From positions 1-53,260 of IMG/VR virus record IMGVR_UViG_3300036830_000043: a stretch of DNA of 53,260 bases. One strand, given 5' to 3'. The notes below the pieces were generated by a model. It searched no databases. It was given only the letters and a program-made list of their open reading frames with translations, and was not told the DNA's origin. The position numbers were made by a program, and so were the translations under genes. How positions within the stretch are numbered: position 1 is the first letter of the stretch; every line of letters starts with the position of its first letter. Source of the stretch: a virus. Its lineage: Duplodnaviria; Caudoviricetes. Positions 21,541-46,893 of this stretch are shown here, one piece after another.

Positions 21541-21594
21541 TGTGAACTACATCACTTCAGGGACCAGATTATCGCAACAAATCCTAGGATGCAA
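21541..21594 (-). promoter_or_regulatory. Capsid-operon promoter TTGCAT-N17-TAATCT with a downstream CRP-like box (21541-21556)
   Basis: Shares CGATAATCTG with the promoter at 25711-25740; TGTGA-actaca-TCACT box. Confidence 0.55.
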
Positions 21595-29227: not shown

Positions 29228-29363
29228 GGTTTCCCAAGCTCCGGTTGATGTACGTGTCACCAGAATTGTGACACAGGTCTAGGCCGCTTGCAAATTTTCG
29301 TGATTAGATGGCCGGTTGACACTTATGCGCATATGGCAACGCTTCGCCACTCCCTGTTGAAAC

Positions 29364-29406
29364 TGTGAACTGTGACACGCTTGTCAACCTGAACATAGAC
29401 CGAGAT
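29364..29406 (+). promoter_or_regulatory. Early promoter: CRP-like box 29364-29379, operator 29373-29386, -10-like CGAGAT
   Basis: Same architecture as 32335, 35240 and 40627. Confidence 0.55.
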
Positions 29407-29429
29407 ACGCACACCAACCACGGGAGTAG

Positions 29430-29798
29430 ATGAAGATGAAATTAACCAACTGGGATGCGACGAAGAAAGAATGGTCAAGCGAGACGGTGGCCGAAGGCCA
29501 GGTGGATTTTGACCAGAAGGACCGCTTGGGCCGCACCATCGGCGCCGGGTTCTACATCGAGGCGCAGACCTTTGTCACCGATGAAACCATGAACTACGAA
29601 AACAACTTGGAGCGTAACCCCTGCTTGGCGGGTGGCCCCGGTTTGTACTTCAGCGCCACCATCTTCAACACCCGCAACCGTGAGCGCTACCAGGCGACCA
29701 CCAGCACTCTGTGCGCCAGCATGGATGCCGCCCACCGCTACTGCGCGGCCTACATCGCCAAGAAGCGCAAAGACGCTGTGAAAAAGGCGGGCAAGTAA
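29430..29798 (+). CDS. Hypothetical protein
   Basis: GGGAG RBS; first gene of the plus-strand block. Confidence 0.75.
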   Translation: MKMKLTNWDATKKEWSSETVAEGQVDFDQKDRLGRTIGAGFYIEAQTFVTDETMNYENNLERNPCLAGGPGLYFSATIFNTRNRERYQATTSTLCASMDAAHRYCAAYIAKKRKDAVKKAGK

Positions 29799-30356
29799 AT
29801 GGCGCACGGCGACCCACGCTATACCGGGGTAGCACTGATGCTCCCCGACGTGCTGCCGCCCATCACGCGAGTGGTGGCCGTGCAGGTCTATAACCGCCTG
29901 GTGCGGGCCTTTGGCGGCACGGAGCACATCCCGGTGGGTGTACTCGAAGCCAGGGGCGGGCGCCCGATAGCGAGCAACTACGGCAGCCGCAGCAGGGGCC
30001 GGACGTGTTGGGCCAGCACCACCCCAACGCGCAGCCACTTCAAGGGGTGGGGGCGCATCGTCCACGATGCCAGCCACTACGTCTTCGAGCAACGCCACCC
30101 GTCAGCGCGGCCCCACGATGGTGGCCACGCGCAACTGGAAACCCAGATGGCGCACTACGTGATGTCGCATCGGCTGATAGAACGCTACGCCCCGCAACCG
30201 CGTAAGCGGGTCAAGGTTGACACCAACGTCAAGCTGGCCAATACTGACGCGGCCATCAAGCGTTGGCAGACCAAGGCGAAGCGCGCGGCGACAGCCCTGC
30301 GCAAGCTAAACGTCAAGCGTAAACGAATTCTGAAAACCATGGAGAACCCGACGTGA
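29799..30356 (+). CDS. Hypothetical protein with an HDxxH...H zincin-like motif
   Basis: IVHDASHY...PHDGGH; basic C-terminal helix. Confidence 0.6.
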   Translation: MAHGDPRYTGVALMLPDVLPPITRVVAVQVYNRLVRAFGGTEHIPVGVLEARGGRPIASNYGSRSRGRTCWASTTPTRSHFKGWGRIVHDASHYVFEQRHPSARPHDGGHAQLETQMAHYVMSHRLIERYAPQPRKRVKVDTNVKLANTDAAIKRWQTKAKRAATALRKLNVKRKRILKTMENPT

Positions 30357-30592
30357 ACAGCACATGCCGATTTTGCAAGCTCACCACCGGACAAATGGTG
30401 AAGTACAACGTGCGCCACTATGCCCATGCTGCCTGCGGCTTCAAAGCCAAAGGCGTGGCATTCCTCGCAGCTTTGACCGATTGGCAGTGCTTCAGTGAGG
30501 TTCCCTACCGCGCGGCAGTGGAGGCGGGCGCCAATGTTGAGGCGGAACTGGTTAGGCGTGCGAATAAATATCAACAGGAGAACCCAACATGA
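30353..30592 (+). CDS. Hypothetical protein (CxxC...HxxC)
   Basis: GGAG RBS; overlapping start and stop. Confidence 0.6.
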   Translation: MNSTCRFCKLTTGQMVKYNVRHYAHAACGFKAKGVAFLAALTDWQCFSEVPYRAAVEAGANVEAELVRRANKYQQENPT

Positions 30593-30683
30593 TGACCCGT
30601 GAAGACTGGTGGACTTACTCACGCGTAGAGAATGCGCGCCGCGACCGTTGGCAGCGATTCATGCGGTGGCTGGCGGGACAGCT

Positions 30684-31571
30684 ATGAGCAAGCAATTCTA
30701 CAAGCACACCGAATTCCGCGCGGCAGCGCTGGCCATGATTGATGTCATGAACGACATCTGCGACAGCTACGTGGCACAGGGCTTCGTGCTCACCGTCCGG
30801 CAGCTTTACTACCAGCTTGTCGCCCGTGGCCACATCGAGAACACGGAGCGCAGCTACAAGCGCACCACCAACCTGGTGAATGACGCGCGCCTGGCCGGAC
30901 TCATGGACTGGGATGCCATCGAGGACCGCACGCGCGCCTTCATCAAGCGCAGCCGCTGGGAGACGCCCAACGATGCGCTGGCGAGCGTCGCGCAGCAGTT
31001 CCACATGGACCTGTGGACAGGGCAGGAGCATCGCGTTTACGTCATCGTGGAGAAGGAAGCGTTGGCCGGTGTGCTAGAAGGTGTATGCAACGCGCATGAT
31101 GTGCCACTCCTGGCAGCGCGCGGCTATCCATCGGGCACGGTGTTGCGCGAGTTTGCGCAGATAGACCTGGAGCAATGCGGCGGCGAAGAACAAACGCCCG
31201 TCATCCTGCACTTCGGTGACCATGACCCGTCTGGCATCGACATGTCGCGCGACCTGGAAGAACGCATCGAACTGTTCAACGAATGCGGCCAGGCGGTGCT
31301 GTTCCGCCGTCTCGCGCTCAACTGGGACCAAATCGAGGAACAGAAGCCACCGCCCAATCCAGCCAAAGTCACTGACTCACGGTTTGCCGACTACGCGCGC
31401 AAGTACGGCATGGAGTCATGGGAGTTAGACGCGCTGACGCCCACGTATCTGACCGACCTGGTGCGCAAGCATGTCATGGAGTACATTGACGTGCCCGTGT
31501 GGAACCGGCGCATAAAATCCATCAAACACATTCGCACTCGGCTGGAGAAGACAGCCAAGGAATTCAAATGA
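30684..31571 (+). CDS. Topoisomerase VI-A / Spo11 / JetD-like Toprim protein
   Basis: TVRQLYY (catalytic Tyr region), VEKEAL, RGYPS, GDHDPSG, WELDAL. Confidence 0.82.
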   Translation: MSKQFYKHTEFRAAALAMIDVMNDICDSYVAQGFVLTVRQLYYQLVARGHIENTERSYKRTTNLVNDARLAGLMDWDAIEDRTRAFIKRSRWETPNDALASVAQQFHMDLWTGQEHRVYVIVEKEALAGVLEGVCNAHDVPLLAARGYPSGTVLREFAQIDLEQCGGEEQTPVILHFGDHDPSGIDMSRDLEERIELFNECGQAVLFRRLALNWDQIEEQKPPPNPAKVTDSRFADYARKYGMESWELDALTPTYLTDLVRKHVMEYIDVPVWNRRIKSIKHIRTRLEKTAKEFK

Positions 31572-31972
31572 CTGACACCAGTGTCACCGACGCGGCCCAA
31601 ATACCCGTAACTCAACCCGCCAGCCTGGCATCACTATCACTGACTCCGATGCTGCGCTACCGTATACAGGAGGCCAACGGCCAGACGCACGTCGGCTACT
31701 TCCTGCCGGACCCGCAGAGCAAGCCCGCGGGGCAACTGAAGCTGATAGCGCGCACCCAGCACCCGACGCGGGCCATCGCGGACGCCCGCATCATTCGCCG
31801 GGCGCGGTCGGTGTGCATGCGGGCCAAGAAGCCCTGGTTGCAATACGTGTTCACCAGCGACACAGGCGCCTTCCAGGCGTTTGAAGATGAAGCGGTGGCC
31901 ATCGAGGCTGCCACGAAGTCGGAACTGCCCTGCGTGCTCTACAGCGTCGATGGGACATGGAGGCATCTGTAA
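31568..31972 (+). CDS. Hypothetical protein
   Basis: ATGA overlap with the upstream gene. Confidence 0.65.
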   Translation: MTDTSVTDAAQIPVTQPASLASLSLTPMLRYRIQEANGQTHVGYFLPDPQSKPAGQLKLIARTQHPTRAIADARIIRRARSVCMRAKKPWLQYVFTSDTGAFQAFEDEAVAIEAATKSELPCVLYSVDGTWRHL

Positions 31973-32184
31973 TGGACCCCGGCTGCACATGCGGCGCCAC
32001 GCTGAAGCACTCCGCAGACTGCGTGGTGTTTTGGGCGCCGCTGCCCCGGCAGATGCAACTGGAAGACATCGTGCCAGGCTGGGTGTGGGCATACCCCGGG
32101 CACGTGTTCCTTGACGGGTCTGTCATGCAGAGCGGGGCGCCACCGTCCTGGTGCTCGAATGACTGGGCTTGGCATGGCTGCTGA
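31972..32184 (+). CDS. Small Cys/Trp-rich hypothetical protein
   Basis: TAATG coupling to the upstream gene. Confidence 0.5.
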   Translation: MDPGCTCGATLKHSADCVVFWAPLPRQMQLEDIVPGWVWAYPGHVFLDGSVMQSGAPPSWCSNDWAWHGC

Positions 32185-32332
32185 CAAGCACCCCGAACCC
32201 GCCCAGTGCGTGTGGTGTTGGCGCCCGCTGTGCGCTTCCGTGGAATGCCGCATTGCCTACCACAATGCCATGTTCATCCCGGCCTGGTACGAACCCAAGC
32301 GCCGGGTGCTGGACCTGGAGCCGCACTCCTAA
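32174..32332 (+). CDS. Small Cys-rich hypothetical protein
   Basis: CxxC..C...C; overlaps the upstream stop. Confidence 0.45.
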   Translation: MAADKHPEPAQCVWCWRPLCASVECRIAYHNAMFIPAWYEPKRRVLDLEPHS

Positions 32333-32334
32333 AC

Positions 32335-32378
32335 TGTGACACACATCACTTGACGCGCGTGTCATCTTGGCCCAAGAT
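32335..32378 (+). promoter_or_regulatory. Early promoter: CRP-like box 32335-32350, TTGACG-N17-CAAGAT, operator 32351-32364
   Basis: TGTGA-cacaca-TCACT; TGACgcgcgtGTCA; followed by AGGAG RBS. Confidence 0.7.
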
Positions 32379-32404
32379 CGCTACACCAACCAGGAGTAGC
32401 GCAG

Positions 32405-32656
32405 ATGGCAAAAGTTACAGCGAAGTTGAACGCGGCACAGGCCACGGAGAAGTTCTCCAACATCAAGGGCACCATCATGGGTGCCAAGCTCTTCGGGGAC
32501 CACGTGGCCCTGTTGGACATGGGACGCGGCGCCAAGGCCGTCATCATCAACGGCAACATGGATTGCTGCTGCCCCAATGCCACCATGGCGATGGTCCAAG
32601 TGGAACGGGCTCTGCGCATCGTCGCCAAGCACTTGTCCGGCACGGTGCGCTGCTAA
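32405..32656 (+). CDS. Hypothetical protein
   Basis: AGGAG RBS downstream of the promoter. Confidence 0.7.
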   Translation: MAKVTAKLNAAQATEKFSNIKGTIMGAKLFGDHVALLDMGRGAKAVIINGNMDCCCPNATMAMVQVERALRIVAKHLSGTVRC

Positions 32657-33666
32657 TGCGCGCCCGCACTGACAAGTTTCGCCCTTCGGTGATTGACCCC
32701 ACCAAGTTCACCTTCATTGGACACCACTACATCGGTGGCATGAGTGACGAAACGTGGGCCGCGCTGTGCGACGAAATCAACGAAGGCGCCGAAGCCCTCG
32801 AAGCGCACCAGAAGGCGCACCCGGGGTTCACGGTGGCGGGCCACAAGTGGGAAGGCCAGTGCGACTGCTGCGGCGCCCGCTACAAGTTCGGCGCTTGGTT
32901 CCACACTGAAGAGGGCAACACCTACATCAGCATTGGCGGCACGTGCGCGTCCAAACTCAGCCTAGGCAGCCCGGAGGCAATGAAACGCTTTCGCGAACAA
33001 GTCAACACCTTCAAGGTTCACCAGGAGCGCGTGGCCAAGGCCCGTGCCTACCTAACCACAGTCAACCTGCTGGCTATGCTGGACCTGTACTTGGACAAGA
33101 CCAACACGGTGCGCGAGTTTCCAGAAAACACCCTGCGTGACATGTGTGGCAAGGTGGTGCAGTGGGGAAACGAACTGTCAGAGAAGCAACGCGCGTTTGC
33201 CGCCAAGCTGCTACAACAGATACAGGACCGGCCCAAGCTCGAAGCGGAGCGCGAGGCACGCGACGCCAACCGCAAGCCCATCCCGGTGACCGACAAGCGC
33301 ATGACCATCATCGGCAAGGTCATCAGCGCCAAGTATGACCAGGGCGGCTGGAAGGACGAAAACGGGCGCCAACGCGACTTCTACCGCCCGGAGTGCATCA
33401 AGATCACCATAGAGCACGCGGACGGCTGGCGGGTGTGGGGCACGTGCCCGGACACCATCTACGGCCCCGTGGGCTACCCGGACCGCACCGAAGACGGCGG
33501 GTTGACGGGCAAGTACCGCAGCATGGACGATGCAGCGGCCGACCTGAAGGGCAAGACGGTCCAACTTGACGCGCGTGTCACAATCAGCGATAAAGACCCC
33601 AAGTTTGGTTTCTACAAGCGGCCCACCAAGGGCAGCATCATCACCGACACCGCGGTGGCCGCGTGA
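32656..33666 (+). CDS. Hypothetical protein with a CxxCG zinc site and an OB-fold-like C-terminus
   Basis: TAATG coupling; CDCCG...GGTC; GKVIS...WRVWGT...FYKRP. Confidence 0.75.
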   Translation: MRARTDKFRPSVIDPTKFTFIGHHYIGGMSDETWAALCDEINEGAEALEAHQKAHPGFTVAGHKWEGQCDCCGARYKFGAWFHTEEGNTYISIGGTCASKLSLGSPEAMKRFREQVNTFKVHQERVAKARAYLTTVNLLAMLDLYLDKTNTVREFPENTLRDMCGKVVQWGNELSEKQRAFAAKLLQQIQDRPKLEAEREARDANRKPIPVTDKRMTIIGKVISAKYDQGGWKDENGRQRDFYRPECIKITIEHADGWRVWGTCPDTIYGPVGYPDRTEDGGLTGKYRSMDDAAADLKGKTVQLDARVTISDKDPKFGFYKRPTKGSIITDTAVAA

Positions 33667-33968
33667 ACTACATCCTAATCGGGCAGCGCCGCGTCAGCCC
33701 CTACGGCGGATGGTCACAGATGGTGTGCGTGGGTGACCGGCTCTACATGGTTTCGGTGCGCACCGGCAAACGCATCCGCATACCATACAAACCCCGCGGG
33801 CCCGGCGCCTACGGCTACCAGTGGATTGGCCGCGTTCACTCGATTGACGATGGCGAGCGCATCACGTGGGAAGACATCGTTGGCGGCTCACTCGGCGTGC
33901 GTGGTCTACTGCGCTATGCCGGGGTACTTGACACGTCTGTCAACCCAGCGCAGGATACGCCCACGTGA
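33663..33968 (+). CDS. Hypothetical protein
   Basis: GTGA overlap. Confidence 0.6.
   Translation: MNYILIGQRRVSPYGGWSQMVCVGDRLYMVSVRTGKRIRIPYKPRGPGAYGYQWIGRVHSIDDGERITWEDIVGGSLGVRGLLRYAGVLDTSVNPAQDTPT
33928..33956 (+). promoter_or_regulatory. Promoter TTGACA-N17-CAGGAT with an operator at 33929-33942
   Basis: Consensus -35; TGACacgtctGTCA. Confidence 0.6.
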
Positions 33969-34273
33969 ACCAGGCAGAGATTTATGAACGGTGTTACGCC
34001 TACGAACGCAACAGGAGATATGCAGCAATGGTGAACAGCAAACACGTCGGATTGTCCCTAGCCGCCCTCAAAGCTATTGAAGCCGAAGTGCTGGCCGATA
34101 CGTCGCAAGCTGCGGCGGGTAACAAAATCGACCCCAAGGAATTCATGACTGCGGTGCGGGCTCGCACGGCCAACGCGGTGCGCATCTATTGCGCCCAGTT
34201 GAGCGTCGAAGCCACCAACACCAGCACTGAGTCCATCACCGACCAACTGCGCAACATGCCGGGAAACATCTGA
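33965..34273 (+). CDS. Hypothetical protein
   Basis: GTGA overlap. Confidence 0.6.
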   Translation: MNQAEIYERCYAYERNRRYAAMVNSKHVGLSLAALKAIEAEVLADTSQAAAGNKIDPKEFMTAVRARTANAVRIYCAQLSVEATNTSTESITDQLRNMPGNI

Positions 34274-34644
34274 TGCGCCAGTCACGCAAGAAGCTCCGCG
34301 CACGGGCGCTGCGCGATGTGCGCTCATTCATGGTGCCGCCACATCTGCTGCGCTCGAAGGACGGCGCCGAGACGCGGGCCATGCTCCATTGGCTGTCGGG
34401 CTACGCAGCCGCCAGGCGCGACATAGCGAAGGCCAACCGCAGGCCGGTGGGTTTAAATCTTGACATCATTGGTGGACCTGGCCCCATCGAAGCGCCCGCC
34501 AGCGGCAAAGCTCTTCTGGTCATCCCGGCGCTGGGCTCGCGCCCTCAATCACGCATCGAGTGCTTGGCGTGCGGCTGGCCCTGCAACAGCGTGGGCACGT
34601 GCAGCAATCTGGGCTGTCCTGGTCTCGGCGGGGGCGACGCATGA
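34273..34644 (+). CDS. Hypothetical protein with a C-terminal Cys cluster
   Basis: TGATG coupling. Confidence 0.55.
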   Translation: MRQSRKKLRARALRDVRSFMVPPHLLRSKDGAETRAMLHWLSGYAAARRDIAKANRRPVGLNLDIIGGPGPIEAPASGKALLVIPALGSRPQSRIECLACGWPCNSVGTCSNLGCPGLGGGDA

Positions 34645-34937
34645 GCGCCCAAGTAATCGACGCCCGCGCACGTTTCACTATCGCCCGTGCTGCGGCCATC
34701 GCCAAGCGCGACATGAGCATGACGTTGGGCCAATCGTGGCAGGCGGCAGAGCGCGAGCTTGAAGCGGCGCTGGTCACCAACTACAGCGCCGAAGAGATGG
34801 CCCGCATAGCCGCGGTGGCCAAGCGCCTACGCCCGGAGACTGAAGCCAGCGAGTGGAGCGCCGACGAACTGCAAGCGGCCATCATCGGTGCGGAGCACGT
34901 GTTCACCGACATGGACGGGCGGGTGATAGAGCCATGA
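34641..34937 (+). CDS. Hypothetical protein
   Basis: ATGA overlap. Confidence 0.6.
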   Translation: MSAQVIDARARFTIARAAAIAKRDMSMTLGQSWQAAERELEAALVTNYSAEEMARIAAVAKRLRPETEASEWSADELQAAIIGAEHVFTDMDGRVIEP

Positions 34938-35134
34938 ATGACAACTACACCCCGGAAGCTGCCGCGGAAATCTGCGCCATCTACCAGCGCCAATGCGTGG
35001 AGCGGGCGCCCTGGCGCACACGCGAGTGGTGGCGCGAACTGCGAGCACGCACAGACCGACATCCGCATGGCGGCTACCGGCTCACCAACGAAGACGTTAT
35101 GCTGCTAGGCGCTTGTGGCGTGCGGCGCTACTAG
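34934..35134 (+). CDS. Hypothetical protein
   Basis: ATGA overlap. Confidence 0.5.
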   Translation: MNDNYTPEAAAEICAIYQRQCVERAPWRTREWWRELRARTDRHPHGGYRLTNEDVMLLGACGVRRY

Positions 35135-35239
35135 GATGTTAGACCGCGAATGGTGCCTGCTGTGCCAATCCTGGCAGCTAGGGGCCTGCCGCACGCCCGA
35201 TGACGCAGCCCAGTGCCCCATGCAGCGACCTGATGGAAG

Positions 35240-35282
35240 TGAGACGCAGGACACACAACGCAAGTGACAGCCGCGTCAAGAT
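35240..35282 (+). promoter_or_regulatory. Early promoter: CRP-like box 35240-35255, operator 35265-35278, -10-like CAAGAT
   Basis: TGAGA-cgcagg-ACACA; TGACagccgcGTCA. Confidence 0.55.
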
Positions 35283-35319
35283 ACGCGCACCCCATCCGGG
35301 GCAACTAGGAGTGATGACG

Positions 35320-35499
35320 ATGCAACAGCACAAAGCCCAACGCCACAGCGGCAGCCATGCCAACGTGGCCGTGAATCGCGCCCACAAGCGTGCCAAGGTC
35401 TACACAGGCCCCAACCGTGCGCAGCGTCGCGCAGAGATGCGCTTGGATGCAGCCGTGGTGGACAGTGCGGCCTTGACCTTCGAGGCGCCGCAAGCATGA
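35320..35499 (+). CDS. Small basic hypothetical protein
   Basis: AGGAG RBS; NRAQRR motif. Confidence 0.55.
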   Translation: MQQHKAQRHSGSHANVAVNRAHKRAKVYTGPNRAQRRAEMRLDAAVVDSAALTFEAPQA

Positions 35500-35861
35500 G
35501 CAAGACCAACGAAACAGGGGCGCACCAGGCGTTGGCCGACACCGCGCGTATGCGTGGGCTCGATGCGCTGCGTGATGACCCCTTGGAACTGACGCAGCCG
35601 TTGGCAGCGCCTATCCGTCGCCACCGCGCGTGGGAGGGCAAGCTACTGGGCGCGCAGCTAACCCCGCGTGACCCGGTGCGCGAACGGCGCAAACCGTCCA
35701 CGGTCGGTGAGCGCCAACCGCTGGTCATCATGTCGCGCAAGGTAAGTGCTGCCGAAGCGCAGCGCATCTGGCCGCAGCCCACGGCACTAGCCAGCAGCGA
35801 CCCGGACGGCCATCGCCAAGCCTTCGTGGACTACATCAGCGACCAGGGGCAGCCGTTATGA
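35496..35861 (+). CDS. Hypothetical protein
   Basis: ATGA overlap. Confidence 0.55.
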   Translation: MSKTNETGAHQALADTARMRGLDALRDDPLELTQPLAAPIRRHRAWEGKLLGAQLTPRDPVRERRKPSTVGERQPLVIMSRKVSAAEAQRIWPQPTALASSDPDGHRQAFVDYISDQGQPL

Positions 35862-35925
35862 GCGCCAAGACCCGCCAGCGGCAGCGTAGGGCGTTGCGCG
35901 CGTTCAAGCGCCAGCAGCGCCGGGT

Positions 35926-36141
35926 GTGGCCGTGAGCGCCATGCGTCCCATCAACCCGTGCGTGGTGGCGACACCGGACGGCCGCATAGGCGTGCTCACC
36001 GGGCGCGTGGGCTTCGACGGTTGTGTGGAGATAAGAGGCAGCCGCTTCGTGGCATCTGTGCCGCTGTCGGTGCTGCACTTCTACTTGCCGCCTGGCAGCG
36101 TCACCGCCAGTGACCCGCGTTACTTAGCGTGGCGCCCATGA
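35926..36141 (+). CDS. Small hypothetical protein (SH3/KOW-like beta pattern)
   Basis: VVATPDGRIGVL; start uncertain. Confidence 0.45.
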   Translation: MAVSAMRPINPCVVATPDGRIGVLTGRVGFDGCVEIRGSRFVASVPLSVLHFYLPPGSVTASDPRYLAWRP

Positions 36142-36425
36142 GCCGCGACGCGGGGCTGCGCTTGGCCGTGGCATGTCTGGTGGCGCTGGTCGCGTTCGCT
36201 GTCCTGGTGTCACGGTGAGCCCGTTAGAGCGCCTTGGCAACCTTATCAACTGGGCAGCGGTGCCGTGCTTTTTGGTGTGGCTGTGGCTGGCGGGATTCGG
36301 CGGCAATCAATGAAGCCGCAGCAGCGGGGCGTTTAACACGCCACCTTGGGAGGGAGAACCCGAACGTGTGCCCCGTGCCGCGAGCTACCGCGGCCCAGTG
36401 GCGTAGTCACCAGTGCGCGGCGCCA

Positions 36426-37217
36426 TCATCGTAGCGCAGGCCGCTGTACCATGTCCATATAGCCCTGCGTGGGGTCGGTGCTCGCGTCCAACGGCGCATC
36501 GACGGGTGGCGGCAGACCTAGTTCGCCCACTTTGCCTTCAGTCTGGTAGGCACCCAACAGCTTGGCCACTTCCTTGCGGGCATCGGCCCTATCCTCCATG
36601 AGCACTTCTAGCTGGCCATTGCTGCCAATCTTGATGCCTCGATACAGGCGCCGTGTCTTCGGTGGCAGCTTGTCGGTGTCGGTGACATAGACCGCATGCA
36701 CGCCAGCGCCACGACACTGCGGACACGTTGGGTTGGGCTCGCGTTGCGGATCGAACCCAAAGCCCCCGCGGCAGCTTGGCGCCTTGACACGCATGTCAGG
36801 TGTGCTGTTGTCTTCAGCGTCGGCCGCTGCAAACGTCCATTCCAATTCTTGCCACTGGTACGCGTAGCCTTCACCGTAGCAATGGCGACAGCACAGTGCG
36901 CGGTATCGGATGATGTCGTTGGCGTCGGCGCCCGCAACGTCTAGCTGCGCTTGCAACACGTCGCGCGCTTTGATGATGGTGGTGGCTGCCGCAGCGGCTA
37001 GCAACTCTTCAATCCTTGCGGCCACCAAGGGGTGAGCCAAGGCGCGGCTAGCTTCCTCCCACACGGTAGTTGGCTGGATATTCCACGCAACGTTGTACGC
37101 CATCCGGTAGGCCGTTGATGCGTTCTGGTACTCGCAATAATAACGCGCAAACGCTTCTTGCTTGGCCGTGAGCAATTCGCTAGCTAATTCAACCGATTGG
37201 GACACCTGTGCGTTCAT
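36426..37217 (-). CDS. terS: Terminase small subunit with a Cys-rich insertion
   Basis: LTAKQEAFARYY...NASTAYRMAY...P.V.ARIEEL; CRHC and CPQC.G.G. Confidence 0.82.
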   Translation of the reverse strand: MNAQVSQSVELASELLTAKQEAFARYYCEYQNASTAYRMAYNVAWNIQPTTVWEEASRALAHPLVAARIEELLAAAAATTIIKARDVLQAQLDVAGADANDIIRYRALCCRHCYGEGYAYQWQELEWTFAAADAEDNSTPDMRVKAPSCRGGFGFDPQREPNPTCPQCRGAGVHAVYVTDTDKLPPKTRRLYRGIKIGSNGQLEVLMEDRADARKEVAKLLGAYQTEGKVGELGLPPPVDAPLDASTDPTQGYMDMVQRPALR

Positions 37218-37263
37218 GTCCACAGCCTACCGCAACGCCTAGCACCGTCAAGCCCCTCCAACG

Positions 37264-37428
37264 GTCGGTCGGTTGTTTTAATATCCGCCAGTAATTTAAA
37301 TATTATTCTCATTATTTATATTGGGCGATTATTCTCCTTACTCTAGTAGTAGGGGTAATAGCGCTAGTTGCAATCATTAATGAATTAGAATAATATTTAA
37401 ATTCCTGTCCACTTAAAAAGAGACCGAC
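37264..37428. repeat. AT-rich long imperfect inverted repeat (candidate origin or packaging site)
   Basis: Perfect 17-bp arms at 37293-37309 and 37387-37403, plus outer GTCGGTC/GACCGAC arms. Confidence 0.75.
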
Positions 37429-37433
37429 ATACC

Positions 37434-37796
37434 ATGACTAACACCCAAATGAAGCTAAACGCCCGCGCGGCCGGTGAGCGCTTCTACCACAGCGGTCAAC
37501 CTTGCAAGCAGGGCCACAACTCTAAGCGCTACGCCAGCACCGGCCAATGCGTTGAGTGCATGACGGGCAAAAGCGACAAGCCCTTGACCGAAGCGCAACA
37601 GCACGCGGTGCAACGCTACAAGCTGGCATTCTTGCTGCCGCTCGAAGCCACGCCCGAACTGTTGCTAGGCTTGGATACCTATATGGTAGATTGTGCCAAG
37701 CGCTACATGGAGCACCACAAGCTGTTGCCCGCATCTCTTATCAACGCTCAAAGTATGGCCCAGTCTACGGGCAAGCCTATCCGCGACTTCCTGTAG
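37434..37796 (+). CDS. Zinc-finger protein related to the HNH N-terminal domain
   Basis: SGQPCKQGH..R.ASTGQCVEC. Confidence 0.7.
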   Translation: MTNTQMKLNARAAGERFYHSGQPCKQGHNSKRYASTGQCVECMTGKSDKPLTEAQQHAVQRYKLAFLLPLEATPELLLGLDTYMVDCAKRYMEHHKLLPASLINAQSMAQSTGKPIRDFL

Positions 37797-38224
37797 CAAC
37801 ATGCAACGCATCAAGCGTAGGCCCAAGGTGGGTGGCAAGCGGCGCCCGCTCAAGGCTTGGGAGTCTGCTAGGCTTGCACGCAACAAGCGCCAGTGCTGCC
37901 GATGCGCCGCTATGCCCCATCCCCACCGTAAGGGCAGCCGCTCCACCATCCGCAGTGGGCGACGCAGCATAGAAGTCCAATGTGAGCCCTGACGCGGCGC
38001 TGTATAATGTGCGTGACGCAGAGCCGACCGCAGCGCATCGGCATGGATTGCCCGCCCTGTGTGTCCGCTCTGCGTCGCTTGCGATTCACCCCATGGAGCG
38101 CGCCCACATGCCAAACATCGAGCCCATCACCTGCGCCCGCGATTGCGACCACTACGAATATTGCAACGATGGTGACCCTGAAAGCTCGCAGGAAGGCAGC
38201 GGGGACGCTGATTTGTACTAGCAC

Positions 38225-38254
38225 TTGACAAGCGTGTCACCTTGGCCCCAAGAT
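38225..38254 (+). promoter_or_regulatory. Promoter TTGACA-N18-CAAGAT with an operator at 38226-38239
   Basis: Near-duplicate of 32350-32378. Confidence 0.65.
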
Positions 38255-38294
38255 GCGCGTACTGCCCACCCCGGGCGCCACGTCAGGTGAACAT

Positions 38295-38501
38295 ATGTTT
38301 GCGTTGATACTTCCCAACGGTCTGATGTATGCCCCCAAGCTGGCATCGACGTTGACCCGCTGCACCGCCCAATGCGCGAAGTGGAAGACGGCCGAAGGCG
38401 CCGCGCTCGCTTGCGACAAGGCCAATGCACAGCGCACCGACAAAGAACCCAAGTTTGAATTGGTAGTGCTCTACCAGGAGGCCGATGTATGCGCAGCATA
38501 A
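38295..38501 (+). CDS. Hypothetical protein
   Basis: AGGTG RBS downstream of the promoter. Confidence 0.5.
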   Translation: MFALILPNGLMYAPKLASTLTRCTAQCAKWKTAEGAALACDKANAQRTDKEPKFELVVLYQEADVCAA

Positions 38502-38797
38502 CCATCCCCCGCATCACGGCCATCACCGTGTTGCTACTCTTCGCGATATGGGCGCATGAGCCGCTGCCCGTCGCTGCCGCCACTGTCCCACCGCCTGCCG
38601 CGTTCGTAAGGGCATCGGACTCACTGACTGTGGCGCCGACCAACCGCAGCTTTGGGCTGTACACCAATGGCGTTGAGTTGGTGCGCGTTGGCCCTACAGG
38701 TCGCATATACATGAAGGGCAAAGAAGTCCACACTGACCCGGAGTATCGCGCAGCCATGATGGCGCTGATGCGCGGGGCCATGGGGTGCCAGCCATGA
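38489..38797 (+). CDS. Exported or membrane hypothetical protein
   Basis: AGGAGG RBS; N-terminal hydrophobic segment. Confidence 0.6.
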   Translation: MRSITIPRITAITVLLLFAIWAHEPLPVAAATVPPPAAFVRASDSLTVAPTNRSFGLYTNGVELVRVGPTGRIYMKGKEVHTDPEYRAAMMALMRGAMGCQP

Positions 38798-39294
38798 ACA
38801 ACAGACGCGAAACGTGGGCCTTCCTCGCGCAATGCGGCCTTGAGTCCACCCGCATACCACGCATCATTGCGCTGCTGATTATCTTGGTGCTGTTGCTGTT
38901 CATCAATGGCCAGGTCAACGCACAGACGGTTGACACCACTGTCAGTGCTCCCATGGTGCCGGTGGCGCCGTTGCCCAAGCAATTGCCTGTTCCTACCCCG
39001 GCCACTGAATGGCTGTTTGATGCAGCGCTCACCGCCGACACGTTGCAGACTTTGTATATCCACAAGATGCTCGGCTATACGGAGATGAACGTCATTGAAG
39101 GGCGCAGGCCCAGTGAGTCCGTCATCATCGGCTACGGTGTCACCTGCGCGGTGCTGCACTACATCGTAACGCGCGAGCTTATCAAGCACAGCACCAACAG
39201 CGTTGTGCAGATGTGGGAGTCCGGCACGCTTGGCCTTGAAGTCATCGTGGTGAAGCGCAACGCATCGTTGGGCGTGCGGTTTTATTTCCCATGA
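38794..39294 (+). CDS. Membrane or exported hypothetical protein
   Basis: TM/signal segment; D..QT...E.N...G..PS motif; ends GVRFYFP. Confidence 0.6.
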   Translation: MNNRRETWAFLAQCGLESTRIPRIIALLIILVLLLFINGQVNAQTVDTTVSAPMVPVAPLPKQLPVPTPATEWLFDAALTADTLQTLYIHKMLGYTEMNVIEGRRPSESVIIGYGVTCAVLHYIVTRELIKHSTNSVVQMWESGTLGLEVIVVKRNASLGVRFYFP

Positions 39295-39767
39295 TTGACC
39301 GCTACAGCATCGGGCGACGCATCAGTGATGGCCGGTGGGCTGTTGCCGATATGGAGGCGCCCATACAGGCTAACCCGGTGTATATCCACACATCGCGCGC
39401 AGCCTGTGAAACGTGGGTGGCCAATGCGCTCAAGCCCGAACCCACACCAGCCGACCTGCCGCCACCCCACGCTGCGCTGGCTCGCGTTGAGGCCATGCAG
39501 AATGAGTTGATAGCGCTGCATGTGAACACGTGGGGTGCCTACGAAGTCCCGCGTTATGGCATTGACGCGCGTGTCAGGCATAAGCCCACGGGCAAGCTGT
39601 GCCGGGTACGCGGCTACATGGCATGGACGCCACCCATCGTGCTATACAGCCTGACCGAAGTGGACGGGGAACAGTTGCCGGACTTGACCCCGTTATCCGA
39701 CATCGAGGCCGTGACAGCACACAACGGTGAGCTAACCCAATGCGATGGCCCGGACTCATATGAGTGA
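39291..39767 (+). CDS. Hypothetical protein
   Basis: ATGA overlap. Confidence 0.6.
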   Translation: MIDRYSIGRRISDGRWAVADMEAPIQANPVYIHTSRAACETWVANALKPEPTPADLPPPHAALARVEAMQNELIALHVNTWGAYEVPRYGIDARVRHKPTGKLCRVRGYMAWTPPIVLYSLTEVDGEQLPDLTPLSDIEAVTAHNGELTQCDGPDSYE

Positions 39768-39966
39768 AACCACGCGATACCGTGGGCTGTGCGGGCATTG
39801 CGGCTGCACCGTTGAAGGTGGGCTAGGCGTGATACGTAGATGGAACGGCGCCGCGCGTCGCTACGCCCCGAAGTACGCGGCCAAGAATGCCATGGGTGTC
39901 ATCACAGCCCTGCATTGTCAACCGTGTGATACGATTTATACAACCAACAGGAGAACCAAGAAGTGA
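39760..39966 (+). CDS. Small zinc-ribbon protein
   Basis: CGHCG...HCQPC. Confidence 0.5.
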   Translation: MSETTRYRGLCGHCGCTVEGGLGVIRRWNGAARRYAPKYAAKNAMGVITALHCQPCDTIYTTNRRTKK

Positions 39967-40631
39967 GTAAGCGATACAGAGTTGAAGCCATTGTGAACAC
40001 TGACCGTGTGGGTGAGTTGCAGATTGACTTCGCCATCATGGATTATTGTGTGCTGCCGGGTCAGTTACCTAAGCAAGCGGCTGTATTCACCACCGCGTTG
40101 CAGGCCGTCGAATGGGCCAAGGTTGCCAACAGCAATGATGACAAGGCAAAAGCTGCGTTTGATTCCATGCCCAAGTTCTTTGGTGTGGACTTCGCTGCGC
40201 CCGGCACCAAAGACCGCACCACCTTCAGCTTCGACGTGGAGACGCATGCCAAGCGCTACTTCATCGGCCCCGGCATGGACAACGCCTTGTATGGTTCGGC
40301 CACGGCCATTGATTCGTTGCGGGCCAAGCTCAATGGGCGCTATCACCGGATTCAGGAGTTGACCAAGGTCAACATCACATTGCGGGCCAACTTGAAGGAT
40401 GCGCAGAGCACCGCCAATGACTTCAAGTCCGAACGCGACAAGCTAGCCGCTGCCTGGCAGGAATGTCACAACCATGAATCAGTGGCGTGTCGCGATGCCC
40501 TAGCCACGGCCCAAGATGACGCCCGGATGGTACGCATACAACGGGATAGCCTACAGCGTCAATTGACCAGGGCAGAAGGTGATTACAGTGAGTTAAAAGG
40601 CGCTGTTATTGCCCTTGCATCGAATCTGTGA
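39963..40631 (+). CDS. Hypothetical protein with a C-terminal coiled coil
   Basis: AGGAG RBS; GTGA overlap; heptad C-terminus. Confidence 0.7.
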   Translation: MSKRYRVEAIVNTDRVGELQIDFAIMDYCVLPGQLPKQAAVFTTALQAVEWAKVANSNDDKAKAAFDSMPKFFGVDFAAPGTKDRTTFSFDVETHAKRYFIGPGMDNALYGSATAIDSLRAKLNGRYHRIQELTKVNITLRANLKDAQSTANDFKSERDKLAAAWQECHNHESVACRDALATAQDDARMVRIQRDSLQRQLTRAEGDYSELKGAVIALASNL

Positions 40632-40669
40632 CACAGTTGGCATACACGGACTGACAGACGCGTCAAGAT
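40627..40669 (+). promoter_or_regulatory. Promoter: CRP-like box 40627-40642, operator 40652-40665, -10-like CAAGAT
   Basis: Same spacing as 29364 and 35240. Confidence 0.55.
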
Positions 40670-40691
40670 AGCACCACGTTAACCAGGAGAT

Positions 40692-40778
40692 ATGACCATG
40701 ATGACTTCCACCCTTGCCTTGATTCTAGTGTCACCCTTCTTGCTGGCCTTCATCGGCCGCGTGGTGTTCGCCCGCTAA
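40692..40778 (+). CDS. 28-aa hydrophobic single-TM peptide
   Basis: AGGAG RBS; MTMMTSTLALILVSPFLLAFIGRVVFAR. Confidence 0.6.
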   Translation: MTMMTSTLALILVSPFLLAFIGRVVFAR

Positions 40779-40849
40779 CAGTCTCCCTGCTGTCGCACAT
40801 AGGGTGTGGCAGCGACCCGTTGGTGGTCATCCCCCGCCAGCGGTTACCT

Positions 40850-40877
40850 AGCCCCCTTCACCGGGGGCTTTTTTTTT
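40850..40877 (+). terminator. Rho-independent terminator
   Basis: AGCCCCC/GGGGGCT stem followed by a T-run. Confidence 0.85.
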
Positions 40878-40936
40878 GTCGGTTGACACGCGTGGCACCA
40901 CATGTGAGACTTGCATCACACTGTAAGGGGATAGCC

Positions 40937-41098
40937 ATGAAAATTGTGATTTGCTTCGCGCTCGCGTACATCTTCCTGGTTGCAGGGATACTGTGGTCCA
41001 TCCATCGGTGGCGCCAGCATCTAAACCGTGACGCCATTCCTGGTTTGGACAAGACCCCGTGCCACAATGGCACCCATGGATACGAAGACACACATTGA
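40937..41098 (+). CDS. Small membrane protein
   Basis: AAGGGG RBS; N-terminal TM helix. Confidence 0.55.
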   Translation: MKIVICFALAYIFLVAGILWSIHRWRQHLNRDAIPGLDKTPCHNGTHGYEDTH

Positions 41099-43636: not shown

Positions 43637-43918
43637 TTAGGCCGCTATGGCTGCCAGTGCTTCTTCGCGGCGCTTCTTTTCCAAACGTCGCGCAGTCAAA
43701 TCACCGGCCACAAGCGCCTGCGATATGATGATGTTGTTGTTGGTGCGGATGGCTTCGAGCACCACCGCCTTGCGCAGCGCCTTCATGGTGCCCCAATTGC
43801 TGTTGACTGTGCCCATGCCAATCTTCAGCTTGGTGGCCACGTGGCGTTTGAGCACGTTTTGATAGCCGAGTGTTTCCGACAGTTTGACTGCTGCGGCCAG
43901 GATTTTCGCTTTGTACAA
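43637..43918 (-). CDS. TetR-like HTH transcriptional regulator
   Basis: ILAAAVKL...GY..V....VA..L....GTV...WGTM..LR pattern. Confidence 0.75.
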   Translation of the reverse strand: MYKAKILAAAVKLSETLGYQNVLKRHVATKLKIGMGTVNSNWGTMKALRKAVVLEAIRTNNNIIISQALVAGDLTARRLEKKRREEALAAIAA

Positions 43919-43951
43919 GGGTGATTCTCCGGTTGGTTAACAAGTATGGGC

Positions 43952-43965
43952 TGACAGTGGCGTCA
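43952..43965. promoter_or_regulatory. Operator in the promoter spacer of the TetR-like gene
   Basis: TGACagtggcGTCA between TAGACA and CATACT on the minus strand. Confidence 0.65.
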
Positions 43966-43969
43966 CTGT

Positions 43970-44437
43970 CTATAGGCTGCCCGGCCCGGTAACTATTGCA
44001 GCATCGCCGCCATGTGTGTTAATGAGCGCGGCCCATTTAAGCTGCGCTTGCTCTTCGGGCGAGTTGGTCCACTTCCACGTGGCACGCTTGACTTCGCGGC
44101 TGACGAACTGTGCCACGATGGTGCCGACATCTCCGGCCACTATCAGCTTCGAGCGGAAACCGATCAAGTCCCCTGACTTCACGGCAGCGTTCATGGCAGG
44201 CGTGTCATTGGCCAGGCCCCACCGCACGAAGCTGCCACTATCGAGCATGCCAGCGCCCACGTTATTGCGGAATAGGTAGACGTTGCGGCGCTGTGCTGCT
44301 TCGAGCCGCACCAACGATTGCTGCCGTGACTCACTGCCATCATCAGTGGCAGGCGGTATGTACGTGATGGATGTGGCTAGATCGCGCAGTGCATCGGCGG
44401 ATATGCCCCACTTGCGCGCCCACTCCAACAACGTCAT
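43970..44437 (-). CDS. VRR-NUC family nuclease
   Basis: ES..Q, FRNNVG, SGDLIG, EVKR, EQAQ.KW motifs. Confidence 0.85.
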   Translation of the reverse strand: MTLLEWARKWGISADALRDLATSITYIPPATDDGSESRQQSLVRLEAAQRRNVYLFRNNVGAGMLDSGSFVRWGLANDTPAMNAAVKSGDLIGFRSKLIVAGDVGTIVAQFVSREVKRATWKWTNSPEEQAQLKWAALINTHGGDAAIVTGPGSL

Positions 44438-46548: not shown

Positions 46549-46870
46549 GGGTTAGATATCTCTCTGCATTCTGTATGCCTTCCAAGTTGTCGCCCAATCT
46601 TCCAATTGCCAAGTTGCAGTCATTGCAGAGCCAGCCGCGGAATATACCCGTTTCGTGGTTGTGGTCACAACAAAGTTGCTTAAATTCTTTCGAGCAACAT
46701 TCGCACGCAGCAGGCATTGGCCGGGTGGGTTCTGGCATGCCCCGTTTTTTACGTTGACCTTTTAAACTGGTTAGCCGTCTTTTCTCATAATACGCTTCTG
46801 GATTTTCTGCTATCTGCTTAGCTCTCCATTTAGCATTTTGTTCAGCTTGTTTTACGGGGCACCTTGACAT
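46538..46870 (-). CDS. Endonuclease VII-like HNH endonuclease
   Basis: CECC...DHNHETG..RGWLCNDCN..IG; low GC. Confidence 0.85.
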   Translation of the reverse strand: MSRCPVKQAEQNAKWRAKQIAENPEAYYEKRRLTSLKGQRKKRGMPEPTRPMPAACECCSKEFKQLCCDHNHETGIFRGWLCNDCNLAIGRLGDNLEGIQNAERYLTRAS

Positions 46871-46893
46871 GGTTGTCACGATAGCAATAGAAT
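46864..46893 (+). promoter_or_regulatory. Promoter TTGACA-N18-TAGAAT with an operator at 46865-46878
   Basis: Near-consensus hexamers; TGACatggttGTCA at the divergence point of the replication genes. Confidence 0.75.

What the first reader, a model, noticed from the sequence alone, without database searches (positions are those of the whole stretch)
29364..40669. CRP/Clp-like boxes at the class II (-41.5) position of four early promoters, overlaid by the phage operator
Seen: TGTGA-N6-TCACA-like boxes at 29364 (TGTGAactgtgACACG), 32335 (TGTGAcacacaTCACT), 35240 (TGAGAcgcaggACACA) and 40627 (TGTGAcacagtTGGCA). They start 37, 38, 37 and 37 bp before a shared -10-like hexamer (CGAGAT or CAAGAT). 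Three of the four promoters lack an obvious -35, and each carries the TGAC-N6-GTCA operator. Known: class II CRP-family activation uses a site centred at -41.5; CRP senses cAMP and Xanthomonas Clp senses c-di-GMP. Inference: early genes form an AND-NOT gate, on with a host second-messenger-sensing activator and off with the phage repressor.
Basis: partly seen in the sequence, partly recalled or inferred. Interest (0 to 1): 0.85.

Follow-up and report, generated by a model that had tools for sequence, protein, structure and literature searches.

The report
Conserved CRP-like boxes in phage promoters
A soil phage and its relatives carry a conserved CRP-like DNA box where a transcription activator would sit, beside a site for a small phage repressor, so its early genes may be wired to a host nutrient or signal sensor.

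Summary
The four boxes exist at the stated coordinates. They lie 37/38/37/37 bp before CGAGAT/CAAGAT, and each promoter carries TGAC-N6-GTCA.

The boxes are not chance. The close relative G3 keeps both half-sites while the N6 spacer drifts. Indels that move the operator are compensated, so box-to-(-10) stays 37-38 bp. In 81 related phage records, TGTGA[CT] peaks 36-38 bp before a -10-like hexamer. 43 box+operator+(-10) units occur in 21 of those records.

The family logo is asymmetric: AAA-n-TGTGAC-G is strong and the proximal TCAC is weak.

- a fifth box promoter, P0 at 29267;
- box-less TTGACA promoters P5, P6 and Prep;
- the 29 genome-wide operator copies;
- the likely repressor, a 93-aa HTH-only TetR-like protein (43637-43918, minus strand).

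What binds the box is not shown. The host is unknown, no TSS data exist, and no CRP-family protein was found among 53 window proteins scanned (structural-block ORFs were left unscanned). A host CRP/FNR-family class II activator is my leading reading (about 0.4). A phage-encoded activator is the main rival. Another first-stage note on this same genome had already flagged the operator and the TetR-like protein.

The parts
29267..29309 (+). P0: box TGTGAcacaggTCTAG (29267-29282), 37 bp before TTAGAT (29304-29309).
   Evidence: It is conserved in G3 (TGTGAcacagcACTAG). This is the least certain of the five units.
29364..29406 (+). P1: box 29364-29379, operator 29373-29386 (overlapping the right half of the box) and the -10-like CGAGAT 29401-29406.
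   Evidence: The box and operator are identical in G3. The best -35 match is 1/6.
32335..32378 (+). P2: box 32335-32350, -35 TTGACG 32350-32355, operator 32351-32364 and -10 CAAGAT 32373-32378.
   Evidence: The G3 orthologue reads CGTGAcgtagaTCACA. There the operator is shifted 5 bp, but box-to-(-10) stays at 37 bp.
35240..35282 (+). P3: box 35240-35255, operator 35265-35278, and -10 CAAGAT 35277-35282, which overlaps the operator.
   Evidence: The G3 orthologue reads TGTGAcgcccaTCACG (9/10). A -4/+4 indel pair around the operator keeps the distance at 37 bp.
40627..40669 (+). P4: box 40627-40642, operator 40652-40665, and -10 CAAGAT 40664-40669, which overlaps the operator.
   Evidence: The G3 orthologue reads TGTGAcgcgaaTCGCA (9/10).
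38225..38254 (+). P5: TTGACA-N18-CAAGAT with operator 38226-38239. It has no box in W.
   Evidence: The G3 orthologue does carry TGTGAC 38 bp before CAGGAT.
40883..40911 (+). P6: TTGACA-N17-GAGACT with a one-mismatch operator (TGACACGCGTGGCA). It has no box at the activator position and drives a 53-codon ORF at 40938-41099.
46864..46893 (+). Prep: TTGACA-N18-TAGAAT (11/12) with operator 46865-46878, upstream of the replication genes. It has no box.
43943..43972 (-). Promoter-like TAGACA-N18-CATACT with operator 43952-43965 in its spacer, directly upstream of the mini-TetR gene.
43637..43918 (-). Mini-TetR: 93 aa, a TetR-type HTH domain without a ligand-binding domain. It is the candidate operator-binding repressor.
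   Evidence: Pfam TetR_N matches positions 1-47 of 47 at E = 0.004, below the curated cut-off. The family profile A3 (21 sequences) hits TetR-family PDB chains down to E = 4.6e-10. The gene is syntenic in 34 relatives.
21541..21556 (+). Box-like site TGTGAactacaTCACT (9/10), downstream of the minus-strand TTGCAT-N17-TAATCT promoter of the scaffold/capsid genes.
   Evidence: The G3 counterpart is TGAGAagtagaTCAAC, which I read as 7/10. Its function is uncertain.

Best explanation
The boxes are real cis-elements of a promoter type shared by a clade of soil phages. Each promoter has a sigma-70-type -10 (CAAGAT, CGAGAT or TAnnnT) and usually no usable -35. A 16-bp site AAAn-TGTGAC-N4/5-TCAC starts 36-38 bp upstream of the -10, so it is centred near -41.5, the position of a class II activator.

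Most likely (inferred, not shown), a dimer of a host CRP/FNR-family regulator with CAP-like half-site specificity (CRP, Vfr or Clp type) binds there and recruits RNA polymerase. A separate 14-16-bp palindrome, (T)TGAC-N6-GTCA(A), overlaps the -35, the spacer or the -10. It is most likely bound by the phage's own 93-aa HTH-only TetR-like protein, which then shuts these and many other phage promoters.

On this reading the ORFan operons at 29430-40780 are on when the host activator is active and off once the phage repressor accumulates.
For: 1. Coordinates and spacing hold.
2. Footprinting against the 75-83%-identical relative G3: across five orthologous boxes the half-sites differ at 7 of 50 positions and the N6 spacer at 11 of 30 (Fisher p = 0.027). 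The G3 boxes match 6, 8, 9, 9 and 9 of 10.
3. In P2 and P3 the operator moved by 4-5 bp relative to both neighbours, with compensating indels that keep box-to-(-10) at 37-38 bp.
4. Family-wide, in 81 records (1.48 Mb), TGTGA[CT] to [TC]ANN[AC]T counts are 26, 22 and 21 at 36, 37 and 38 bp. Most of the other distances from 10 to 69 bp give about 5-17, with single values of 19, 21 and 22 at 32, 42 and 63 bp. The control word TCACA shows no sustained 36-38 peak (19, 39, 19).
5. 43 units in 21 of the 81 records give the logo AAA n TGTGAC G .. T (27/43) C (36/43) A (20/43) C (24/43).
6. In 9 of the 43 units an ATG opening an ORF of 40 codons or more lies 6-8 nt after the -10, and in 7 of those 9 exactly 7 nt after it. 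This leaderless geometry supports the -10 and TSS assignment.
7. In W, the promoters with a 6/6 TTGACA (P5, P6, Prep) have no box. Box promoters P0, P1, P3 and P4 have -35 matches of 3/6 or less.
8. Box bases do not co-vary with operator bases. G3 boxes are mostly TGTGACG, while its operators are of the TGACA type.
9. No CRP-family or other dimeric winged-HTH protein was found among the 53 window proteins that I scanned with Pfam and/or PHROGs. About 24 ORFs of my gene list, mostly in the structural block 2263-22360, were not scanned.
10. The early ORFans are not shared with G1 or G2, although the box is.
11. A review gives the CAP consensus TGTGA-N6-TCACA, places CAP in the -35 region at class II promoters, and says that Xanthomonas and Lysobacter Clp are inhibited by c-di-GMP (PMC10187061; passages seen).
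12. For the operator protein.
Against: The host is unknown, so a matching CRP-family protein cannot be checked.

The family logo is strongly asymmetric. In G1, G2, L045 and L078 the proximal half reads TCTAG or TCTCG, not TCAC. Conserved positions outside the CAP core (C and G after TGTGA, and AAA displaced by one base from CAP's AAA flank) fit a different reader equally well.

Genome-wide the consensus is at chance level at <=3 mismatches.

No TSS, expression or binding data exist. The three isolated phages with the same helicase-nuclease-(TetR)-primase module that I scanned (Stenotrophomonas B2, Pseudomonas Psp6, Shewanella SppYZU01) have no box units. No case with a known host is therefore available.
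Confidence: 0.42

Rival explanations
1. The box is read by a phage-encoded activator, either made from a box-less promoter early in infection or delivered with the virion. It would act as a class II activator, as Mor and C do in Mu or CI does at lambda PRM. The resemblance to the CAP consensus would then be partial and coincidental. The box promoters would be 'middle' rather than immediate-early promoters.
For: The strongly conserved part is an asymmetric 11-mer, AAAnTGTGACG, and the right half is weak or different in several lineages. Box and operator occur together in one clade (helicase identity of roughly 55% or more) and are absent from more distant relatives and from three isolates, as expected for a clade-specific phage factor. 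W has strong box-less promoters that could make such a factor first: the AT-rich 37264-37428 region upstream of a conserved Zn-ribbon protein, and Prep at 46864.
Against: No conserved candidate with a recognisable activator fold was found. The only HTH detected is the mini-TetR. The conserved 165-aa protein at 43970-44467 matches an endonuclease PHROG only weakly (phrog_93, E = 1.6e-8). I read its alignment as nuclease-like from a recalled VRR-NUC motif, and a profile search of solved structures found nothing. The Zn-ribbon protein is no more frequent in box loci (4/15) than in others (19/64). The box is constant across lineages whose operators have diverged in their inner bases.
Confidence: 0.28
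2. The box is a conserved promoter element but not an activator site. It could be a direct RNA-polymerase contact (UP-element-like A-tract plus flanking bases). It could also be an auxiliary half-site (it contains TGAC) that helps the mini-TetR repress.
For: TGTGAC contains the operator half-site word TGAC. An A-tract lies at about -53 to -51. The distal half alone carries most of the information.
Against: The distance from the box TGAC to the operator TGAC varies (14, 23, 16, 20 and 19 bp in W P2, W P4, G1 and G2 units; my counts). The distance to the -10 is fixed at 36-38 bp. Operators are preceded by CT, GT or AC, and only once in 29 W sites by TG. Box bases do not follow operator bases in G3. 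In W and G3 the proximal TCAC half is also under constraint.
Confidence: 0.15
3. The boxes are chance resemblances within paralogous promoter copies and have no function of their own.
For: At <=3 mismatches the consensus is at chance level genome-wide. P1, P2 and P4 share CTGTGAC and could be copies of one another.
Against: The element and its spacing recur in 21 of 81 related records. The spacer turns over, and operator shifts are compensated by indels.
Confidence: 0.03

Closest known systems
Class II CRP(CAP)-dependent promoters of E. coli (galP1 and the synthetic CC(-41.5); recalled, with the general description from PMC10187061)
   Same: A 16-bp dyad of the TGTGA-N6-TCACA type overlaps the -35 region. 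Counting from the end of the core to the second base of the -10 gives 22 bp between them in P0, P1, P3 and P4. The review calls a 22-bp spacing exclusive to class II, but whether it counts the same way is my reading. The -35 is weak or absent, and one half-site is better than the other.
   Different: The reader protein is unknown. The distal half is extended (AAAnTGTGACG). In several lineages the proximal half is TCTAG. The promoters belong to a phage and also carry a phage operator.
lac promoter logic (CRP activation plus LacI repression; recalled)
   Same: The architecture is AND-NOT: an activator site sits upstream and a palindromic repressor operator overlaps the core promoter.
   Different: lac is class I (-61.5) and its repressor senses a ligand. 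Here the position is class II, and the putative repressor has no ligand-binding domain.
Xanthomonas/Lysobacter Clp and Pseudomonas Vfr (CRP-family regulators; PMC10187061 passages)
   Same: They have CAP-like half-site specificity and occur in Gammaproteobacteria. The nearest isolated phages by helicase similarity infect Shewanella, Acinetobacter, Stenotrophomonas and Pseudomonas.
   Different: No link to any of these hosts is shown. The Stenotrophomonas and Pseudomonas phages that I scanned have no boxes.
Phage class II-type activators: lambda CI at OR2/PRM, and Mu Mor and C (recalled)
   Same: A dimer is centred at about -42 to -43.5 and replaces a poor -35.
   Different: Those activators are phage-encoded and read phage-specific sequences. 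No such protein was identified here.
Dispersed repressor sites: the stoperators of cluster A mycobacteriophages, and the SlmA sites of E. coli (SlmA is a TetR-family protein) (recalled)
   Same: Tens of copies of one short site are spread over the genome, many of them inside genes. There are 29 in W, 24 in G3, 19 in G1 and 10 in G2.
   Different: The sites here are palindromic, so they have no orientation. The candidate binder is a roughly 95-aa HTH-only TetR-like protein, and the phage looks lytic.

Membership tests
CRP/FNR-family class II activator site | A 16-bp dyad TGTGA-N6-TCACA with both halves present | tested here: inconclusive
   W boxes match 7, 8, 9, 8 and 8 of 10, and G3 boxes 6, 8, 9, 9 and 9 of 10. 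In the family logo the left half is near-invariant. This is partly by construction, because the search pattern fixed G2, G4 and A5. The right half reads T 27/43, C 36/43, A 20/43, C 24/43. G1 and G2 have TCTAG or TCTCG instead.
CRP/FNR-family class II activator site | Site centred near -41.5, which means a fixed distance to the -10 | tested here: met
   The distance is 37, 37, 38, 37 and 37 bp in W. The family-wide peak is at 36-38 bp. Indels are compensated. A leaderless ATG lies 6-8 nt after the -10 in 9 of 43 units. No TSS was mapped, so the centre is inferred from the -10.
CRP/FNR-family class II activator site | Weak or absent -35 hexamer at activator-dependent promoters | tested here: met
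   P0, P1, P3 and P4 match 3, 1, 2 and 3 of 6, and P2 matches 5 of 6. The box-less P5, P6 and Prep match 6 of 6.
CRP/FNR-family class II activator site | A CRP-family protein of matching specificity is present in the host (or the phage) and binds the site | not testable with these tools
   The host is unknown. No cNMP-binding or Crp-type HTH hit was found among the 53 window proteins scanned. About 24 ORFs, mostly structural, were not scanned.
CRP/FNR-family class II activator site | Activity depends on cAMP or c-di-GMP | not testable with these tools
   No experiment was possible and no RNA run was available.
TetR-family repressor with palindromic operator | N-terminal TetR-type HTH domain | tested here: met
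   Pfam TetR_N covers positions 1-47 of 47 at E = 0.004 and 17.3 bits, below the 24-bit cut-off. The profile of 21 homologues gives 261 PDB sequences at E <= 0.1. The 60 best listed are TetR-family regulators or unnamed transcriptional regulators, and the best scores 4.6e-10.
TetR-family repressor with palindromic operator | C-terminal ligand-binding and dimerisation domain (about 120-150 aa) | tested here: not met
   The protein has 93 aa. Most homologues have 75-140 aa, and one ORF call of 245 aa (L098) is probably over-extended. I therefore call it TetR-like or 'mini-TetR', not a full family member.
TetR-family repressor with palindromic operator | Palindromic operator overlapping promoters, including the regulator's own | tested here: met
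   There are 29 sites against 0.95 expected, and only the N6 spacing is enriched. Operator start to -10 peaks at +12, +15 and +22/23. An operator lies in the spacer of the promoter-like site upstream of the gene. An operator lies within 150 nt upstream of the homologue in 8 of 34 loci.
TetR-family repressor with palindromic operator | The protein binds that operator | not testable with these tools
   Only co-occurrence is available. Homologues occur in 15 of 29 operator-rich loci and 5 of 28 operator-poor loci. This comparison is confounded by relatedness and by partial coverage of the records.

The most novel reading that the evidence does not exclude
A whole clade of lytic-looking soil phages hard-wires its fast-evolving ORFan operons to a host CRP/FNR-family second-messenger sensor through conserved class II boxes. 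A ligand-less mini-TetR with 10-29 dispersed operators later shuts them off. Infection would then be gated by the host's metabolic or signalling state at the level of the first phage transcripts.
Probability: 0.35. Interest if true: 0.75.

Novelty: new variant of a known kind. Interest (0 to 1): 0.6.

Why it matters
If a host CRP-type regulator drives these promoters, a lytic phage's first genes would read the host's cAMP or c-di-GMP state. That would be a simple, testable route by which host physiology decides whether infection proceeds.

Whatever the reader protein is, the work defines three things:
- a clade-wide promoter grammar (box, floating operator, weak -10, and often leaderless starts);
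- a family of HTH-only TetR-like phage regulators with dispersed sites;
- about 40 natural promoter variants that make the spacing rules directly testable.

Tried and rejected
**Searches and analyses that led nowhere**
- Megablast of 29000-41000 against GenBank phages found no match.
- Host inference failed. Portal, helicase and fibre tblastn gave only distant or host-less hits. There are no tRNAs.
- The genome-contig scan found only relatives of one widely spread gene: Chromatiales and Cellvibrionaceae MAGs, a Thermotogae-labelled MAG and Ectopseudomonas khazarica. None belongs to the clade.
- The look-up of sequencing runs listed no RNA holder. It listed four DNA rows labelled soil metagenome, and I did not lay reads.
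- The protein atlas was uninformative for the Zn-ribbon protein.
- The PDB profile search for the 165-aa conserved protein found nothing.
- The earlier-findings look-up for relatives returned nothing.
- Three isolated phages with the same replication module were scanned for boxes. There were no box units, and at most 3 TGAC-N6-GTCA sites each.

**Literature**
- 'TGAC-N6-GTCA': 0 papers.
- bacteriophage + class II + CRP + early promoter + cAMP: 1 paper, irrelevant.
- phage + CRP-binding site + phage promoter: 0 papers.
- TetR + phage-encoded + operator + lytic phage + early genes: 76 papers. I read only the listing of 15, and none described this system.
- I therefore found no description in print within these four searches. 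Supplements were not consulted.

**Ideas rejected**
- Operator protein also reads the box: there is no co-variation in G3, and the spacing to the operator varies.
- The box as a -35 for a promoter 17 bp downstream: no conserved -10 lies there (positions 16-21).
- Sigma-54, ECF or FNR boxes: the words and spacings do not fit (my reading).
- The P/A-rich 279-aa protein at 46933 as regulator: it is low-complexity.
- An 18-of-21 near-duplicate between 21537 and 32331: by my own arithmetic, about 24 such pairs are expected genome-wide.

**Caveats on counts**
- The 43 units used a relaxed left half, [TC]G[TA]GA[ACT]. About six of them look like false positives (L036:6017, L040, L044 plus strand, L061, L070, L095).
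- W P0 (no operator) and W P1 (CGAGAT fails the -10 pattern) are not among the 43.
- Most relatives are only partly covered (10 kb or less on each side of the helicase).

Full report
**What the window is.** The window is a complete 53,260-bp virus record with direct terminal repeats. It has a long minus-strand structural block. That block includes terL at 27509-29260, the portal gene at 25737-27494 and a head-morphogenesis gene. The replication module holds a primase (41231-43636), a helicase (44824-46548), an exonuclease, a Gp2.5-like SSB and a DNA polymerase. A plus-strand array of small genes runs from 29430 to about 40780. Nearly all of these lack PHROG or Pfam matches. I found no integrase and no CI-type repressor among the proteins I scanned, so the phage looks lytic. 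About 24 ORFs of my gene list, mostly in the structural block, were not scanned. 'Early' for the ORFan array is an inference from gene content.

**The observation.** All four boxes, their distances to CGAGAT/CAAGAT (37, 38, 37 and 37 bp) and the accompanying TGAC-N6-GTCA sites are as described. P1, P3 and P4 have at best 1, 2 and 3 of 6 matches to TTGACA at 16-18 bp. P2 has TTGACG at 17 bp.

Taken alone, the CAP consensus is not enriched at <=3 mismatches: 181 sites against 176.5. At <=2 mismatches there are 25 sites against 14.6 +/- 3.8, and the maximum of 200 shuffles was also 25. Seven of the 25 lie in the 4.5% of the genome that I call intergenic, where 1.12 are expected (p = 1.6e-4).

The operator is a much stronger signal. 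It has 29 copies against 0.95 expected, and only the N6 spacing is enriched. Its extended form is TTGAC(A/G)-N4-(C/T)GTCAA.

- P0 at 29267: box plus TTAGAT at 37 bp, with no operator.
- P5 at 38225: TTGACA-N18-CAAGAT.
- P6 at 40883: TTGACA-N17-GAGACT.
- Prep at 46864: TTGACA-N18-TAGAAT.

The last three carry an operator and no box.

**Relatives.** A search with one early-region protein gave 18 loci. Only two of them (records G1 and G2) are true relatives. They share the structural and replication genes at 25-63% amino-acid identity in the best aligned segment, but none of the ORFans. They carry 19 and 10 operators with different inner bases.

A search with the helicase found G3, which is 65-83% identical in DNA over aligned blocks (mostly 75-83%) and has 24 operators. 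A helicase alignment (A2) then gave 80 loci.

**Evidence that the box is functional.**
- Substitution pattern. Between W and G3, the five orthologous boxes differ at 2 of 25 left-half positions, 5 of 25 right-half positions and 11 of 30 spacer positions (Fisher p = 0.027). The G3 versions are as good as or better than those of W: CGTGA-N6-TCACA, TGTGA-N6-TCACG and TGTGA-N6-TCGCA.
- Compensated indels. In P2 the G3 operator lies 5 bp further from the box and 6 bp nearer the -10. In P3 it lies 4 bp nearer the box and 4 bp further from the -10. Box-to-(-10) therefore stays at 37-38 bp.
- Conserved units in distant relatives. In G1 and G2, seven promoters read AAAGTGTGACG, then a weak -35 (TAGAC), then the operator, then CAAGAT, TACGAT, GATACT, TATAAT or TATACT. 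The box starts 36-37 bp before the -10.
- Family-wide spacing. Over 81 records the distance from TGTGA[CT] to a -10-like hexamer peaks at 36, 37 and 38 bp (26, 22 and 21 counts). Most of the other distances from 10 to 69 bp give about 5-17, with single values of 19, 21 and 22 at 32, 42 and 63 bp. The control word TCACA shows only an isolated 39 at 37 bp.
- Operator positions. The operator takes three discrete positions relative to the -10: +12, +15 and +22/23. At +22/23 its TTGAC serves as the -35.
- Units and logo. 43 box+operator+(-10) units occur in 21 of the 81 records. About six look like false positives of the relaxed pattern.
- Leaderless starts. In 9 of the 43 units an ATG opening an ORF of 40 codons or more lies 6-8 nt after the -10, and in 7 of those 9 exactly 7 nt after it. 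This supports the -10 and TSS assignment and places the box centre at -41.5 to -43.5.

**What the box looks like.** The logo is AAA-n-TGTGAC-G-y-r, followed by T (27/43), C (36/43), A (20/43), C (24/43). The distal half is therefore strong and the proximal TCAC weak. The dyad is clear in W, G3, L089, L042, L048 and L049. The proximal half is TCTAG or TCTCG in G1, G2, L045, L078 and W P0.

A review that I read in passages (PMC10187061) makes these points:
- The CAP consensus is TGTGA-N6-TCACA, and R180, E181 and R185 contact G2 and G4.
- Real sites deviate from the consensus.
- At class II promoters CAP sits in the -35 region.
- A spacing of 22 bp to the second -10 position is exclusive to class II. 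My count of 22 bp for P0, P1, P3 and P4 assumes that the review counts from the end of the core.
- Xanthomonas and Lysobacter Clp are inhibited by c-di-GMP.
- The rhizobial Clr site has conserved C6 and G11 flanking a 4-bp spacer. The phage box shares that feature (TGTGAC-N4-GTCAC).

**The operator reader.** The 93-aa product of 43637-43918 (minus strand) aligns over the whole Pfam TetR_N model at E = 0.004, below the curated cut-off. A profile of 21 homologues hits TetR-family structures down to 4.6e-10. It has no ligand-binding domain and no paralogue in W.

Its gene follows a promoter-like site with the operator in the spacer. The gene is syntenic (helicase, nuclease-like gene, TetR-like gene, primase) in 34 relatives. 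In two isolates the depositors annotated the syntenic gene as TetR-family: Stenotrophomonas phage B2 and Shewanella phage SppYZU01. Binding is inferred, not shown.

**Who reads the box.** This is open.
- For a host CRP/FNR-type dimer: the word, the N6 geometry, the class II position, the constancy of the box across lineages whose operators and ORFans have diverged, and the lack of a conserved phage candidate.
- Against it: the asymmetry, the non-CAP conserved positions, the TCTAG lineages, and the restriction of the box to one clade.
- The box does not follow operator bases in G3, and its distance to the operator varies. The mini-TetR is therefore an unlikely reader.

I put about 0.42 on a host CRP-family activator, 0.28 on a phage-encoded activator, 0.15 on a non-activator element and 0.03 on chance.

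**Novelty.** Activator-plus-repressor promoters are textbook. I did not find, in four searches, three things: a conserved CAP-like class II box across a phage clade, an HTH-only TetR-like regulator with tens of dispersed sites combined with it, or leaderless starts at such promoters. I rate the finding as a new variant of a known kind, with interest about 0.6. Another first-stage note on this same genome (e1-6299313) had already flagged the operator and a TetR-like protein.

Noticed in passing
window 37264-37428: A non-coding island rich in A+T lies between terS (36426-37223, minus strand) and a conserved 120-aa Zn-ribbon protein (37434-37796). It holds two sigma-70-like promoter matches (TTAATA-N17-TATTAT and TTTAAA-N16-TATATT) and has neither operator nor box. 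It could be the immediate-early promoter region or an origin.
   Followed up: partly
window 43637-43918 (-); loci L034-L112: A family of roughly 75-140-aa HTH-only TetR-like proteins is syntenic between the helicase and the primase in 34 related phage loci. The matching genes are annotated as TetR-family in Stenotrophomonas phage B2 and Shewanella phage SppYZU01. Those two isolates lack TGAC-N6-GTCA enrichment. Pseudomonas phage Psp6 has CTTGA-N8-TCAAG x7, and SppYZU01 has GACG-N4-CGTC x12.
   Followed up: partly
relatives: G1 (L024-026), G2 (L027-029), G3 (L031-033), L036, L042, L046, L049, L052, L083: In nine box promoters an ATG opening an ORF of 40 codons or more lies 6-8 nt after the -10 hexamer. 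This implies leaderless mRNAs in this phage clade.
   Followed up: partly
window 30217-30245: TTGACA-N17-AATACT (10/12), with operator 30218-30231, lies inside the ORF 29799-30356. It is a possible internal promoter, or a purely repressive 'stoperator-like' site.
   Followed up: no
window 30609-31571: A 320-aa protein (PHROG 6247, labelled 'DNA topoisomerase', no Pfam hit) is spread widely beyond this clade. It occurs in 18 IMG/VR loci and in four genome contigs, one of them a 158-kb contig of Ectopseudomonas khazarica. In G1 it has its own promoter with two tandem operators.
   Followed up: partly
window 21537-21557: The best CAP-like site in the genome together with P2 (TGTGAactacaTCACT, 9/10, flank AAAC...T) lies downstream of the minus-strand TTGCAT-N17-TAATCT promoter of the scaffold/capsid genes. 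The G3 counterpart matches only 7/10, so selection on it is doubtful.
   Followed up: partly
window 46933-47772: The first gene after the strongest sigma-70-like promoter (Prep) encodes a 279-aa Pro/Ala-rich low-complexity protein. It is conserved in 62 of 79 related loci, and its function is unknown.
   Followed up: no
window 40693-40869: P4 drives only a 28-codon hydrophobic ORF. Hairpins and a strong terminator-like site follow (40850-40869 plus a T-run), so this looks like a self-contained unit.
   Followed up: no
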